DNA from: a virus
Strand: one strand, 5' to 3'
IMG/VR virus record: IMGVR_UViG_3300050821_006071
Span: 6,632 to 70,631 of that record
Length of the DNA stretch: 64,000 nucleotides
In this document: positions 27,652-33,388 of the stretch, piece by piece
How positions within the stretch are numbered: position 1 is the first letter of the stretch
Layout of the letters: each line of letters begins with the position of its first letter
The notes under the pieces: generated by a model
The model's database searches: none
What the model saw: the letters and a program-made list of their open reading frames with translations, nothing else
Told to the model about the DNA's origin: nothing
Position numbers and translations under genes: made by a program

Positions 27652-28491
27652 GTGCTGAGCCACCCAAGTCAGCCTGACGACCATAGCCCCCTGGTGCGGC
27701 TCGGCCGCAAACTGCGTGAGGCTCGGGTAGCCGCTGGCTACCCGAGTGCTCAGGCTCTGGCCGACGCCATGACCTGCGATCGCTCATACGTCTCCCGTAT
27801 CGAGTCGGGCAAGCTTGCCCCCTCGGGCAAGATTCTGCGCATGTGGTGTGAGTTGTGCCACGTTGACCCTGAGCTGTATGAGGCTCAGGTGCGCTTGGCG
27901 CGCACGATCGACGCCGCCTCCGTTCCGCTGTGGTTCGAAGACTTCGTCGGTGCGCAACGCCTAGCCCACACGATTCGAACATGGCAACCCACCATCGTTC
28001 CAGGCCCGTTCCAGATTCCCGACTACTGCCGCCCGTTGTGCGCGTCACTAGGCGAGAGCGATGATCGGATAGAAGAGCTAGTCACGGCTCGCACGGTGCT
28101 GCAAGAACTGTTCACTCGGCCGAAAGACCCCGTGACGTTGCATGCCGTGGTGGACGAGTTCGTTCTACGACGGTGTGTAGGATCTGCGGATGTCATGCAC
28201 CGACAGCTCACGCACCTGGCCGAGATGGGCCAACTCCGAAACGTTGGCCTACAGGTGGTGCCCACTAGCCGAGCGTGCAACGCCGGCCACGTGGGAGCCT
28301 TCACCATAGCTAGCCTTCCGGATAGCCCTGATGTGCTCTTGATGGGCGCGGTAGAGGATGTGACCAGCGTCCGGCCCGCCTCGGTGTCGCGCGCACATGC
28401 AATCTTCGACCGAGTACGCTGGGACGCACTATCCAAGGCAGACAGCTTGGAGTTCATCCGAGAGTTGGTGAAAGAGTTATGGAGACGCTAG
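27652..28491 (+). CDS. XRE-HTH + DUF5753 regulator (WhiJ/Scr1-like)
   Basis: LGRKLREAR...YVSRIESG HTH; PGPFQIPDY, VVDEFVLRR.VG...M..QL.HL. Confidence 0.9.
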   Translation: MLSHPSQPDDHSPLVRLGRKLREARVAAGYPSAQALADAMTCDRSYVSRIESGKLAPSGKILRMWCELCHVDPELYEAQVRLARTIDAASVPLWFEDFVGAQRLAHTIRTWQPTIVPGPFQIPDYCRPLCASLGESDDRIEELVTARTVLQELFTRPKDPVTLHAVVDEFVLRRCVGSADVMHRQLTHLAEMGQLRNVGLQVVPTSRACNAGHVGAFTIASLPDSPDVLLMGAVEDVTSVRPASVSRAHAIFDRVRWDALSKADSLEFIRELVKELWRR

Positions 28492-28667
28492 ACCGACCAT
28501 GGCGCAAGTCCACATACAGCGGTCACGGCGGACAGGACTGCGTAGAGGCGGGCAACGCGGCCGGCGCGGTTCTGGTGCGCGACACCAAAGACCGTGGGAA
28601 CGGCCCCGTGCTGCGGGTGAACCCTGCCGACTGGCAGCGGTTTACCTCAGCCATCCGCACCAGCTAG
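28479..28667 (+). CDS. DUF397 protein (BldB/Scr2-like)
   Basis: WRKSTYS...CVE...VLVRDTK...W..F. Confidence 0.92.
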   Translation: METLDRPWRKSTYSGHGGQDCVEAGNAAGAVLVRDTKDRGNGPVLRVNPADWQRFTSAIRTS

Positions 28668-30678: not shown

Positions 30679-32768
30679 GTGCTTCCCCCTGAAAGTGGGT
30701 GACAGGCCATGATCATCGTCAACACCGAAAGCTTTGCGCGGTACTGCCGAACGTTCCGCGCAGCCATCAGCACATCAAAGCGGCGAGAGCTGTTTGACGC
30801 CATGGTCGGCAAGCTCACCGAGGCCGACGGGGCTTGGGAGTTCATCCCCACTTACGGCCTTACGATTTGCTGGAAGCAAGCGCTGGACACTCCGGAGTAC
30901 TACCGTGAGCCGCACTACGGCTTGCCGCCTCAGTGGGACCTGCCCACGTACGAAAACCTCGTGTTCCTCACGCTATCAAGCCCGACGGCCCGCCCCATCC
31001 TCGGGACATGTCGAGGCCCCGGAGCTGGACGGCGAGACCAACTCGTGTCGCTAGCCCGTGCGCTAGATGCCCTAGCAAACCCTGAGAAGGTGCTTGAGCT
31101 GTGCTGACAGACGAGAAAATAGAGGCCACCCCGATTCGCCTCACGGTGCACAGCGGCAAGCAAATGGGCGGCACGGGGTGGGATGTGGAGTGTGGTCGCA
31201 TCACTGCCCACGGAAGCACCTTGACCGAGGCCAAGAGGAACCTCGCCGACGACATCACCGAGGCCCTCAACTCACCCGACGATGAGCCATCGTTCGCACG
31301 GGCGGATGACGGGGCACTGTGGGTGGCCATCCCCGATGGCATCGGGGGTTACCACGAGTGGCGGGTTGCCAGCGTGGCCGAGAATTGCGGTAGCTGCGAA
31401 GGACAGGCAGCCTACGCGTTCGGCCGATCGGTCGGCATGACGATCATCCATCCAAAGTGGGGGTCCAGAGGCGAGCCAACGTGACCCTTACAGAGGCCAT
31501 CCAAGCCAGTGCCGATGCCGACCATGCCCGCATGCCCCGGTGTGCGTGGTGTGGCCGCTCGGGCGTTCCCTACGCATACAGGGGCGTTCGCTTTGACGGC
31601 TTGACGTGCGTACGCGGTGAACGTCTGTGCCCGACGTGCGTTGCCGAAGACCTCGGCCGCAACGGCGTTGACATCAAAGTCATAGATGGTCGGCCAGGAC
31701 GAGAGTCGTACGTTTACAACACCGTGCGCGATGCTGACAAGGTGACCATTCGCTGTGAATTCGCCGATGGCAGGGACAGACCACGGCGCAAAAGGGCCAA
31801 GAGATCATGAAGCCCTACGTGGTGATTGAATTCCCGATGGTCGGCAGGAGATACTTCGAGGAACGTTGGGGCGTTTACTGCTATGACGAGTACCCCGAGG
31901 GCTGCGATCTCGCCGGCCTCAAACGCCGTACGTGCCTCGACAGCTACGACACGGTAGACGATGCGGTGCGCGAATACCCTGATGTGGATATCGTCATCAA
32001 CGGGAGCGGCTATGAAATGCCCGTTCTGGAATGACAACCTGCGACGCTGACGCCAGCGGCAGCGAGGTTGCAACCTATGCCGTCTACACGAAGCGCGGCC
32101 CGGTCATGCTTTGCGATCACCACCTCAGGGTGCACCTTCTGGTGATCATGGCTACCGGGCTGCCCGTGGTGCCCGTATCACCTCTCATCGAGCCGGCGGA
32201 TTACTACAGGAAGGACTCGTGGTGGAGTTGACCACAAAACATAACTGTAAGCACCCCGAGAGGGCGCGCAGCCGCTATCCCGAACGTCTCCGTGCCCGAG
32301 GCCTAAGCAAAGCACCGCTCATGCTGCCGTTGGCCACGCTGAGGTCTAGGCACCTGGCGAGAATCAAAGAGCACGGCACGCCATGGCCGACAGACAGCGG
32401 CCCGACCACCCTTCAATTCGTAACCCTAGAGGGGGTTCCCTACGCCCAGAGCAGCGGGCACGAGCAAGAGGAAGAGAGCTGGTTAAGCCCATGCCCGAGC
32501 AAGACCCACTCACTGACCTGATCAACACCCTTTTCGACAGGGTACCTAGGGCCGAGGCACTTGACGCGATAAATCAACGAGTCGCGAACCTCTTGGCTAT
32601 CGCCGAATTCACCACGGCGTTCATCCTCTCAGATGAGCGCACCCTAGATGAGTTCATCGCGTTCATGAGAGCGCATGGGGCCAGCCCCCTGGTCGAAGAT
32701 CGCGAACGGCTGAGGGGAGAACTCACGATGGCTCTGTTCACCTTCGCCACAGTCAAGTAAAGAAGCAT

Positions 32769-32896
32769 GGGGCCGGAGTTTTGTCGGTTCCCCTCCAAAT
32801 CAGGCCCAAAGGGTGCGGCTGTGCTCTTGCCCCTCAACTCACAGAGCACAGCTTCCCCTTTTTTGGAGGGTGGAGGTTCGATTCCTCTCGGCTCCA
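32769..32896 (+). ncRNA. Mini tmRNA-like / tRNA-Ala-like RNA (128 nt)
   Basis: Acceptor GGGGCCG/CGGCTCC+A with G3-U70, T arm GGAGG-TTCGATT-CCTCT, unpaired D region, long interrupted stem in place of the anticodon arm. Confidence 0.65.
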
Positions 32897-32980
32897 CGGG
32901 TAGCAAAGCCCAACAGATCGCTCCGGACAAGAGGTGACCTGACTAATTTCCTATGCAAAGGATTTAAAGGTGACCTCCGA

Positions 32981-33388
32981 ATGCGCGGAACTATGCCGCT
33001 CATAATGCTCCTGGCGATACCCTCTATCGACTCCGATGGCATCGCCCACGGGAGCGCCGACCCTCTTAAGTTCACGGTGAGAAACGCCTTGCGGGGCAAG
33101 CGCGTGCACGATCACCCGTATTACGAGGTCTTGGCGGCAGCAATGCGGCGAGACGGCATCAACTGCGTTCCGATTCACGTGGCCCCCGTGTGGTTCATGT
33201 GCCGGGAGTATCAGATGTTCATAGACGGAGAATGGCAGCCCATCCCCCTACCCGCGTGCCTGAACCCGCTACAGCCCATGCTCGGCAACGGTGGGCATCG
33301 GGTCAAGATCGCTCGTGAGCTACGGCTTCCCATACTCCGCTGGACAACGGACCTATGGGAAAGCGGGTGGGGCGATGAGCCTCGGTGA
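32981..33388 (+). CDS. ParB/Srx-like domain protein
   Basis: LAAAMRRDG..VPIHV...LGNGGHRVKIARELRL; start uncertain. Confidence 0.55.
   Translation: MRGTMPLIMLLAIPSIDSDGIAHGSADPLKFTVRNALRGKRVHDHPYYEVLAAAMRRDGINCVPIHVAPVWFMCREYQMFIDGEWQPIPLPACLNPLQPMLGNGGHRVKIARELRLPILRWTTDLWESGWGDEPR

What the first reader, a model, noticed from the sequence alone, without database searches (positions are those of the whole stretch)
32769..32896. Phage-encoded minimal tmRNA-like RNA: alanine identity, no anticodon arm, no tag ORF
Seen: the 5' GGGGCCG pairs with 3' CGGCTCC-A, giving G3-U70 and A73, and there is a canonical T arm. The D region (~14 nt) does not form a stem and the connector to the T arm is only 1-3 nt. 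The anticodon arm is replaced by a long interrupted rod (CCCTCCAAA/TTTGGAGGG, AAAGGG/CCCTTT, GCTGTGCTCT/AGAGCACAGC) capped by a pyrimidine-rich loop. No CCA is encoded and I see no stop-terminated tag frame. Known: G3-U70 is the AlaRS determinant, and this D-loop/P2/T-arm layout is the tmRNA tRNA-like domain bound by SmpB; bacterial tmRNAs are roughly three times longer. Inference: an early-expressed mimic that could rescue ribosomes without tagging, titrate SmpB/EF-Tu/AlaRS, or decoy tRNA-targeting toxins. This is the best candidate for an undescribed system here.
Basis: partly seen in the sequence, partly recalled or inferred. Interest (0 to 1): 0.82.

Follow-up and report, generated by a model that had tools for sequence, protein, structure and literature searches.

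The report
Anticodon-less alanine tRNA mimic in phage
A soil actinophage carries a 128-base RNA element that keeps the alanine-accepting top half of a tRNA but has a long hairpin where the anticodon should be; this resembles the tag-less "mini-tmRNA" known from mycobacteriophage DS6A, but it lacks that family's sequence signature and has no relatives, so its function is untested.

Summary
Window 32769-32896 (+) has a 7-bp acceptor stem with G3-U70, A73, a canonical T arm, a 15-nt unpaired D region and a closed 25-bp interrupted rod. There is no encoded CCA and no stop triplet in any + frame. It is not chance (0 of 100 shuffles). The overlapping 56-aa ORF lacks coding-type GC phasing.

Phage DS6A has a published "TLD only" tmRNA reported to inhibit tmRNA (PMC4131195, PMC11915505). 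I also found at least 95 distinct 76-106-nt matches to a tRNA-Ala/TLD-type pattern in viral contigs. Sixty-nine of them form a covarying family. This scan has noted the class before on other DNA.

Membership fails on sequence. The element lacks the family's GG..UUCGAC and GGAC signatures. It scores 14.5 bits on Rfam tmRNA, against 43.2 for DS6A. It scores 34.9 bits on my family model, which is no better than ordinary tRNA-Ala genes at 34-44 bits.

No homologue of the rod or of either flanking protein was found, so covariation cannot be tested. Best reading (0.42): a processed, alanine-chargeable mimic acting like a tag-less TLD. Rivals: a transcript-processing signal, or a relic.

The parts
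32769..32775 (+). Acceptor stem, 5' strand (GGGGCCG). G3 forms the G-U pair.
   Evidence: Pairs 7 of 7 with 32889-32895. Same 7-bp stem as the DS6A TLD-only RNA.
32776..32790 (+). D region, 15 nt (GAGTTTTGTCGGTTC). It has no D stem, has G8 A9 instead of U8, and holds GG at tRNA positions 18-19.
   Evidence: It aligns poorly (posterior 3-5) to the family's GGUUUCGA block.
32791..32799 (+). Outer rod helix, 5' strand (CCCTCCAAA), P2-like. Pairs with 32862-32870.
   Evidence: (I7). Aligned to P2 of model R1.
32800..32807 (+). 8-nt one-sided bulge (TCAGGCCC).
32808..32827 (+). Middle helix 5' strand AAAGGG, internal loop TGCG, and inner helix 5' strand GCTGTGCTCT.
   Evidence: (I3).
32828..32842 (+). 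Apical loop, 15 nt, 11 of them pyrimidines (TGCCCCTCAACTCAC).
32843..32861 (+). Inner helix 3' strand AGAGCACAGC, internal loop TTC, and middle helix 3' strand CCCTTT.
32862..32870 (+). Outer rod helix, 3' strand (TTTGGAGGG).
32871..32871 (+). Single-nucleotide connector (T) between the rod and the T stem.
32872..32888 (+). T arm: stem GGAGG/CCTCT (one G-T pair) and loop TTCGATT.
32889..32896 (+). Acceptor stem 3' strand (CGGCTCC) and discriminator A73. The next bases are CGG, so no CCA is encoded.
   Evidence: The phage's own tRNA-Gln also lacks an encoded CCA.
32383..32760 (+). Upstream same-strand ORF, an orphan. Its stop codon lies 8 nt before the RNA.
   Evidence: coding-type GC phasing 0.64/0.46/0.64.
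32981..33388 (+). Downstream same-strand ORF (orphan, 135 aa), starting 84 nt after the RNA.

Best explanation
The element is a real, non-coding, tRNA-derived RNA module in the early operon of a temperate soil actinophage. It keeps the 'top half' of an alanine tRNA: a 7-bp acceptor stem with G3-U70, discriminator A73, and a canonical T arm. The D stem is dissolved. The 3' strand of the former D stem, the variable region and the anticodon stem are recruited into one continuous helix that extends into a closed rod of about 25 bp, so there is no anticodon and no message.

Proposed mechanism:
1. The module is transcribed with the flanking early genes.
2. RNase P cuts it out at the 5' end and host 3' trimming releases the 3' end.
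3. The host nucleotidyltransferase adds CCA.
4. AlaRS charges it with alanine, because AlaRS reads G3-U70 and not the anticodon.
5. It then behaves like the tag-less 'TLD only' mini-tmRNA of phage DS6A. It either competes with host tmRNA for SmpB, EF-Tu or AlaRS, or enters stalled ribosomes without tagging.

Shown here: the anatomy, that it is not chance, that it is unlikely to be coding, that it is embedded in the operon, and that there is a published precedent. Inferred only: processing, CCA addition, charging, any SmpB contact and the effect on trans-translation.
For: - Anatomy and non-randomness.
- The alanine determinants G3-U70 and A73 are read directly from the sequence. That AlaRS needs only these features is established knowledge that I recall, not a call result.
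- The 7-bp acceptor stem and A73 are identical to those of the DS6A TLD-only RNA, which also lacks an encoded CCA.
- Positions 8-9 are G-A, as in the viral mini-TLD family, which has R-A there; U8 as the tRNA norm is recalled.
- Bases 23-26 pair with 44-47, so the rod abuts the T stem with a 1-nt connector, as in a TLD.
- The overlapping ORF 32767-32937 has GC by codon position of 0.54/0.60/0.61, against about 0.64/0.46/0.70 for the neighbouring genes.
- No promoter-like or terminator-like site flanks the element.
- It starts 8 nt after a same-strand stop codon. The DS6A RNA starts 10 nt after the end of gp33. In 28 of 67 family members with such an ORF, a same-strand ORF of at least 60 aa ends no more than 30 nt upstream.
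- The phage's tRNA-Gln also relies on added CCA.
[quoted passage not shown] It inhibits endogenous tmRNA in E. coli (PMC11915505).
- Contigs from three libraries recorded as RNA hold parts of the locus. One spans 32541-32817, which is the upstream ORF plus the first 49 nt of the element. DNA carry-over in these libraries is not excluded.
Against: - The TLD-specific signature is missing. The near-invariant GG and the UUCGAC of the D loop, and the AC of the GGAC connector, are absent. These are conserved at 90% or more in alignment A1.
- G19 and A334 of that signature contact SmpB in E. coli (PMC8363625, passages read). Only a UCG remnant is present here.
- Rfam tmRNA gives 14.5 bits, against a cut-off of 47 and 43.2 bits for DS6A. 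Sub-threshold tmRNA hits also occur in archaeal control genomes.
- mt-tmRNA gives no match.
- Family model R1 gives 34.9 bits. Ordinary tRNA-Ala genes score 34-44 bits on R1, so that score reflects only alanine-type tRNA features.
- The MFE fold breaks the T arm. The tRNA-like fold is 4.5 kcal/mol higher.
- No homologue of the rod was found among 314 pattern matches. Neither flanking protein has a relative among 5.8 billion proteins. There is therefore no covariation or conservation evidence.
- The phage encodes no SmpB and no CCA-adding enzyme.
Confidence: 0.42

Rival explanations
1. Transcript punctuation. The tRNA-shaped module serves only as an RNase P / 3'-end processing site (a 't-element') that separates the upstream and downstream early cistrons or stabilises an mRNA end. 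The released RNA has no role, and its alanine identity is an inherited leftover.
For: - The element starts 8 nt after a same-strand stop codon and ends 84 nt before the next gene. It has no promoter-like or terminator-like site of its own.
- It has no anticodon, no tag and no TLD signature.
- An earlier agent of this scan reached this reading for a 111-nt anticodon-less alanine mimic ahead of a phage primase (e1-6232314; an unchecked lead).
- One RNA-library contig runs from the upstream ORF into the element.
Against: - A processing site needs only an acceptor/T-arm stack. It does not explain the fully intact alanine determinant set or the 25-bp rod.
- Bona fide mini-TLD genes are just as tightly packed behind ORFs and so is DS6A. 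Placement therefore does not discriminate between the readings.
Confidence: 0.25
2. Relic. The element is a decaying tRNA-Ala or mini-tmRNA gene whose anticodon region was hit by a palindromic insertion. It is no longer functional.
For: - The D stem is broken: only G10-C25 of its four pairs can form.
- U8, A14 and A21 are replaced (sequence).
- Neither the tRNA model nor the tmRNA model reaches threshold.
- It is a singleton with no relatives.
- Removing the insert leaves canonical tRNA spacing: 27-31/39-43, a 5-nt variable region, and the T stem at 49 (my reading).
Against: - Damage is confined to the D stem and the anticodon. The 12 acceptor and T-stem pairs and the 25 rod pairs are all intact.
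- The former D-stem 3' strand is complementary to the variable region (4 consecutive pairs), which creates a TLD-like continuous helix rather than random decay.
- The phage genome is compact here.
Confidence: 0.18
3. Protein-coding. The 56-aa ORF 32767-32937, or the GTG-extended 191-aa ORF 32813-33388, is the real feature and the RNA fold is incidental.
For: Both ORFs are open. The element has no stop codon in any + frame.
Against: - GC by codon position is 0.54/0.60/0.61 for the 56-aa ORF, unlike the neighbouring genes.
- The protein database holds the downstream product as the 135-aa form that starts at 32981.
- The canonical T loop and the complementary acceptor strands are far beyond chance.
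Confidence: 0.03
4. Integration-site fragment. The element is a 3' piece of a host ssrA or tRNA-Ala gene carried as attP, as in many prophages.
For: 36 of the 74 viral matches to my long pattern are such tmRNA pieces; the sequences are the 143-144-nt enterobacterial-type ssrA 3' ends.
Against: - Both acceptor strands are present and complementary.
- The phage integrase is a serine recombinase about 8 kb away.
- The element lies inside an early gene string, not at a prophage end.
Confidence: 0.03

Closest known systems
'TLD only' (CDS-less) tmRNA of mycobacteriophage DS6A (JN698994: 28478-28560), and its unannotated relatives of about 79 nt in viral contigs (alignment A1)
   Same: - It is phage-borne, with the identical acceptor stem GGGGCCG/CGGCTCC, G3-U70 and A73.
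- It has no encoded CCA, no D stem, no anticodon and no tag.
- A helix replaces the anticodon arm.
- It sits about 10 nt behind a same-strand ORF.
   Different: - DS6A and the family are 76-86 nt long and carry GG..UUCGAC, an AAAnCCGCAnGnGG loop and a GGAC connector.
- This element is 128 nt, lacks all three motifs, and has a 25-bp rod with a 15-nt loop.
- DS6A scores 69.7 bits on R1 and 43.2 on RF00023. This element scores 34.9 and 14.5.
tRNA-like domain of bacterial tmRNA (Rfam RF00023)
   Same: It has an alanine-type acceptor stem, a T arm, an unpaired D-loop analogue of 14-15 nt, and a P2-like helix joined directly to the T stem.
   Different: It has no mRNA-like domain, no pseudoknots, no resume or stop codon, and no conserved D-loop or GGAC nucleotides. 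It scores below the gathering threshold.
CDS-less organellar tmRNAs (mt-tmRNA RF02544; the plastid forms of about 65 bp reported in PMC11915505)
   Same: These are tag-less, TLD-only designs thought to act with SmpB.
   Different: RF02544 gives no match. They are much shorter and organellar.
tRNA-Ala
   Same: - The acceptor stem, A73 and T arm match.
- With the insert removed, the numbering fits a tRNA: G15, G18, G19, a 5-bp stem at 27-31/39-43, a 5-nt variable region, and the T stem at 49.
- Its score on R1 equals that of real tRNA-Ala genes.
   Different: It has no D stem, no U8 and no 7-nt anticodon loop. ARAGORN is silent and RF00005 gives only 17.2 bits on a partial span.
t-elements / tRNA-punctuation processing signals
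   Same: It is a tRNA-shaped module between cistrons with no decoding ability.
   Different: This is a functional analogy only. No processing data exist for this element.

Membership tests
tmRNA (RF00023) | Alanine-type acceptor stem: G3-U70 and discriminator A73 | tested here: met
   Sequence.
tmRNA (RF00023) | Canonical T arm | tested here: met
   GGAGG/TTCGATT/CCTCT.
tmRNA (RF00023) | D-loop analogue with conserved GG and UUCGAC (the G19 and U17 contacts with SmpB) | tested here: not met
   The D region is GAGTTTTGTCGGTTC, with only a TCG remnant. The cmsearch alignment has low posterior there. Contacts are from PMC8363625 passages.
tmRNA (RF00023) | GGAC-type connector between P2 and the T stem (A334 pocket) | tested here: not met
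   The connector is a single T after GGG. The AC is conserved at 90% or more in A1.
tmRNA (RF00023) | mRNA-like domain with a resume codon and a stop-terminated tag frame; pseudoknots | tested here: not met
   There is no stop triplet in any + frame. The rod is closed in both folds.
tmRNA (RF00023) | Score at or above the Rfam gathering threshold | tested here: not met
   14.5 bits against 47. Nothing was found at gathering thresholds. ARAGORN calls no tmRNA.
Phage TLD-only mini-tmRNA (DS6A type; alignment A1, model R1) | Length of about 76-86 nt with GG..UUCGAC, a short P2, an AAAnCCGCAnGnGG loop and GGAC | tested here: not met
   The element is 128 nt and the motifs are absent.
Phage TLD-only mini-tmRNA (DS6A type; alignment A1, model R1) | Family covariance-model score clearly above that of tRNA-Ala | tested here: not met
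   34.9 bits, against 69.7 for DS6A and 34-44 for tRNA-Ala genes.
Phage TLD-only mini-tmRNA (DS6A type; alignment A1, model R1) | Topology: acceptor plus T arm, an unpaired D region, a closed helix in place of the anticodon arm, and no tag | tested here: met
Phage TLD-only mini-tmRNA (DS6A type; alignment A1, model R1) | Binds SmpB or inhibits trans-translation | not testable with these tools
   Known only for a DS6A-like molecule, from the literature.
tRNA (RF00005), tRNA-Ala | D stem, a 7-nt anticodon loop with U33, and U8 | tested here: not met
   (17.2 bits against 29, partial span).
mt-tmRNA (RF02544) | Match to the family model | tested here: not met
   No match at E <= 10.
Bacterial Y RNA (YrlA-type tRNA mimic) | The 5' and 3' ends form the Ro-binding stem and the tRNA-like module is distal | tested here: not met
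   The topology is reversed here, because the ends form the acceptor stem. The E <= 10 Rfam scan listed no Y RNA family. The family description is from the PMC4201824 abstract only.

The most novel reading that the evidence does not exclude
This is a second, independently built lineage of phage alanyl-RNA decoys. It would be made from a tRNA-Ala by dissolving the D stem and welding the variable region to the anticodon stem. Its long rod and pyrimidine-rich loop would give it a partner or target different from that of the DS6A-type mini-tmRNAs. Examples would be SmpB-independent entry into stalled ribosomes, titration of AlaRS or EF-Tu, or a decoy for acceptor-end-modifying toxins. That would show that phages have converged more than once on anticodon-less alanine acceptors.
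Probability: 0.22. Interest if true: 0.65.

Novelty: new variant of a known kind. Interest (0 to 1): 0.4.

Why it matters
Tag-less tRNA-like domains of tmRNA are documented for only one cultured phage, DS6A, where a similar molecule blocks the host's main ribosome-rescue system. This element adds a structurally different, longer form from an uncultured actinophage.

While checking it, I found that short DS6A-type genes are common and unannotated in viral contigs. If such RNAs are charged and meet SmpB or the ribosome, phages would routinely be manipulating ribosome rescue or alanine-tRNA metabolism early in infection.

For this particular element the value is limited. It is an orphan, and no functional step has been shown.

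Tried and rejected
Searches for homologues that found none:
- blastn of the element and of its 1.1-kb surroundings against 50,697 phage records. There was no match apart from a 26-nt T-arm similarity to a Gordonia phage tRNA-Asn.
- The exact 25-nt 3' end in viral contigs: 0 matches.
- Both flanking proteins in viral contigs: no relatives.
- The downstream protein in phage records: no match.
- Both flanking proteins against 5.8 billion proteins: only themselves.
- The large terminase finds 39 viral loci at no more than 62% identity, all on contigs of 29 kb or less, many only 4-10 kb. I did not scan those for the RNA.
- A long-gap pattern in metagenome and genome contigs gave 118 and 120 loci. 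Most matches were tRNA-Ala genes or tmRNA pieces with an upstream GGGGCCG. None shared the rod.
- This scan's own index had no look-alike stretch.

Model R1 as a membership test: rejected. tRNA-Ala genes score as high as the element does.

Intron reading: rejected. Removing the inner hairpin leaves the loop TGCGTTC, which has no U33 or R37 (my reading).

Reads: all the runs are kept as contigs. No RNA-library contig covers 32818-32976.

Loop complementarity: the apical loop has 6 near-matches in the window against 2.3 expected. One 13-of-15 complement lies at 33089-33103. I treat both as chance.

Literature limits:
- Mao et al. 2009 is not held. Its content is cited only through PMC4131195 and PMC11915505.
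- Supplements were not consulted. Supplementary tables of PMC11915505 may list more phage CDS-less tmRNAs.
- The statement that the wide viral family is not in print rests only on searches and 67 of the held library.

Full report
**The sequence**

- GGGGCCG (32769-32775) pairs 7 of 7 with CGGCTCC (32889-32895), including G3-U70.
- A73 (32896) is followed by CGG, so no CCA is encoded.
- GGAGG/TTCGATT/CCTCT (32872-32888) is a canonical T arm.
- A 15-nt D region (32776-32790) has no stem.
- Three helices of 9, 6 and 10 bp, separated by an 8-nt bulge and a 4/3 internal loop, end in a 15-nt loop with 11 pyrimidines.
- One nucleotide links the rod to the T stem.

The composite pattern occurs once in the window and in 0 of 100 shuffles. 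The T-loop 11-mer occurs only here and in another tRNA-like element. The MFE is -62.8 kcal/mol, z = -4.65. With acceptor and T arm enforced the energy is -58.3 kcal/mol, and in the unconstrained MFE the D region pairs into the T arm. The rod is common to both folds.

**Coding or not**

A 56-aa ORF (32767-32937) overlaps the element. Its GC by codon position is 0.54/0.60/0.61. Six neighbouring genes show about 0.64/0.46/0.70. The protein database holds the downstream product as the 135-aa form that starts at 32981. The element has no stop triplet in any + frame, which only 1.5% of shuffles show. A stop-terminated tag frame is therefore impossible.

**Context**

The window is part of a 70.6-kb viral record, 88% complete.
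- It encodes a serine integrase, an Lsr2-like protein and a DUF5753 HTH protein.
- Its large terminase is at best 42% identical to that of a Pontimonas phage. This points to a temperate actinophage with no cultured relatives.
- The element starts 8 nt after the stop codon of a same-strand orphan ORF and ends 84 nt before the next one.
- No promoter-like or terminator-like site flanks it.
- The phage's bona fide tRNA-Gln also lacks an encoded CCA.
- No SmpB and no CCA-adding enzyme is encoded.
- Contigs from three libraries recorded as RNA hold parts of the locus. One spans 32541-32817 and bridges the upstream ORF and the first 49 nt of the element. This is weak evidence, and DNA carry-over is not excluded.

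**Detectors**
- ARAGORN and Rfam at gathering thresholds are silent here.
- RF00023 (tmRNA) aligns end to end over the element, but at 14.5 bits against a cut-off of 47. Archaeal control genomes also give sub-threshold hits.
- RF00005 gives 17.2 bits on a partial span.
- RF02544 (mt-tmRNA) gives nothing.
- At E <= 10 the best hit is tRNA-Sec at 18.8 bits.

**Precedent**

Passages in PMC4131195 list mycobacteriophage DS6A as having a 'TLD only' tmRNA. They state that a similar molecule strongly inhibits tmRNA, perhaps by titrating SmpB. PMC11915505 repeats that the DS6A form inhibits endogenous tmRNA in E. coli.

I located this RNA at JN698994: 28478-28560. It is unannotated and lies 10 nt after gp33. 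It scores 43.2 bits on RF00023. Its acceptor stem and discriminator are identical to those of the present element, and it also lacks an encoded CCA.

**A wide family**

- These gave 121 matches and 95 unique sequences. 74 of them were 86 nt or shorter and were not called by ARAGORN.
- I aligned 69 of the 74 as A1, dropping five by eye. The consensus is GGGGCTGAATGGTTTCGAC-P2-AAAnCCGCAnGnGG-P2'-GGAC-T arm-acceptor.
- 10 of the 18 predicted pairs keep pairing through double changes.
- Model R1 built from A1 finds DS6A, which was not in the training set, at 69.7 bits.

Tag-less mini-tmRNAs are therefore common in phages. In the held library I found only DS6A described. This scan's own index already holds many notes on the class.

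**Is the element a member?**

R1 aligns the whole element at 34.9 bits (E about 1e-5), with the outer rod helix on P2 and a 51-nt insert. The control undoes this result. Ordinary tRNA-Ala genes score 34-44 bits on R1 (ARAGORN identities).

The family-specific blocks are absent:
- There is no GG..UUCGAC. The D region is GAGTTTTGTCGGTTC.
- There is no GGAC connector.
- There is no CCGCAYGCGG loop.

Those blocks include nucleotides that contact SmpB in E. coli: G19, and the U17/A334 pocket (PMC8363625 passages). Only a TCG remnant is left here.

With the insert removed, the element fits tRNA numbering exactly: G15, G18, G19, a stem at 27-31/39-43, a 5-nt variable region, and the T stem at 49. Two features are TLD-like instead. 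Positions 8-9 are G-A, as in the family, rather than U8. Bases 23-26 pair with 44-47, which fuses the variable region into a continuous P2-like helix.

I therefore file it as TLD-like in topology but not as a proven member of the DS6A family. It may be a very diverged member or an independent derivative of a tRNA-Ala gene.

**No relatives**

The long-gap pattern (85-115 nt) found 74 viral, 118 metagenome and 120 genome loci.
- ARAGORN places tRNA or tmRNA calls on 242 of the 314 matches.
- blastn of the element against all 314 aligns only the pattern-fixed 3' end.
- The flanking proteins are orphans.

**Verdict**

The most likely reading (0.42) is an excised, CCA-completed, alanine-chargeable tRNA mimic acting like a tag-less TLD. 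The rivals are:
- a pure processing signal (0.25);
- a relic (0.18);
- a coding ORF (0.03);
- an attP-type fragment (0.03).

The rest is unassigned. The embedding behind an ORF does not separate the first two readings. In 28 of the 67 family members with a same-strand ORF of at least 60 aa upstream, that ORF ends no more than 30 nt before the RNA.

Novelty: a new variant of a known, sparsely described kind. Interest is moderate, because the element is an orphan and no functional step has been shown.

Noticed in passing
L360-L474 (viral contigs), alignment A1; for example L360:7634-7712(-): A large unannotated family of mini-tmRNA (TLD-only) genes of about 76-86 nt in viral contigs. It has the consensus GGGGCTGAATGGTTTCGAC...GGAC and clear covariation in P2 and the T stem. 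In the held literature only the DS6A example turned up.
   Followed up: partly
L119 (JN698994) 28478-28560: The published TLD-only RNA of phage DS6A is not annotated in the GenBank record. It lies 10 nt after gp33 and about 120 nt before gp34 (DNA pol III).
   Followed up: yes
L048, L054, L066, L070, L072, L076, L085, L101, L115 (viral contigs), 115-121 nt: RNAs with an alanine-type acceptor stem and two GGTTCGA T-arm motifs in one molecule. They look like the 'two-headed alanine tRNA-like phage RNA' that this scan noted before (e1-6138116, e1-5496023).
   Followed up: no
36 of the 74 loci L045-L118, for example L051:12314-12456(-): 143-144-nt 3' pieces of enterobacterial-type ssrA in viral contigs, called tmRNA by ARAGORN. 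They are probably attP or prophage-junction copies. They matched my pattern only because of an internal GGGGCTG or GGGGCGG.
   Followed up: partly
L140, L157, L195, L238 (metagenomes); L260 (Thermoleophilia MAG); L311:3652-3773 (Actinomycetes MAG): A class of 114-124 nt with a GGGGCCG acceptor stem, a D-arm-like hairpin, a branched middle part in place of the anticodon arm, and a GGAC-type connector. ARAGORN does not call it. In L311 it sits among many tRNA-like hits.
   Followed up: no
L160, L167, L182, L194, L202, L215, L255, L265, L276, L312, L317: tRNA-Ala-like genes of 120-125 nt with an intact D arm and a conserved insert of about 50 nt (…GCCCG…CGGGCCG…GAGGGTTA…) where the anticodon loop should be. 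They occur in Gemmatimonadota-type MAGs, Minicystis and metagenomes. ARAGORN does not call them.
   Followed up: no
L155, L189, L193, L213, L214 (metagenomes); L281 (Paceibacterota MAG), 132-135 nt: Very short tmRNA-like genes with a canonical GG..TCGAC D loop that ARAGORN did not call. L281 scores 49.7 bits on R1.
   Followed up: no
It scores 26.2 bits on RF00005 (cut-off 29) and 15.9 bits on R1. It shares the GGTTCGATTCC T loop with the element studied here.
   Followed up: partly
window 32823-32837 and 33089-33103: The apical part of the rod is 13 of 15 complementary to a stretch inside the downstream ORF. This is probably chance, since 13 inverted pairs were found in 2 kb.
   Followed up: no
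window 32673-32682 and 32765-32774: An exact 10-nt direct repeat, GCATGGGGCC. One copy is inside the upstream ORF and the other spans the 5' end of the element.
   Followed up: no
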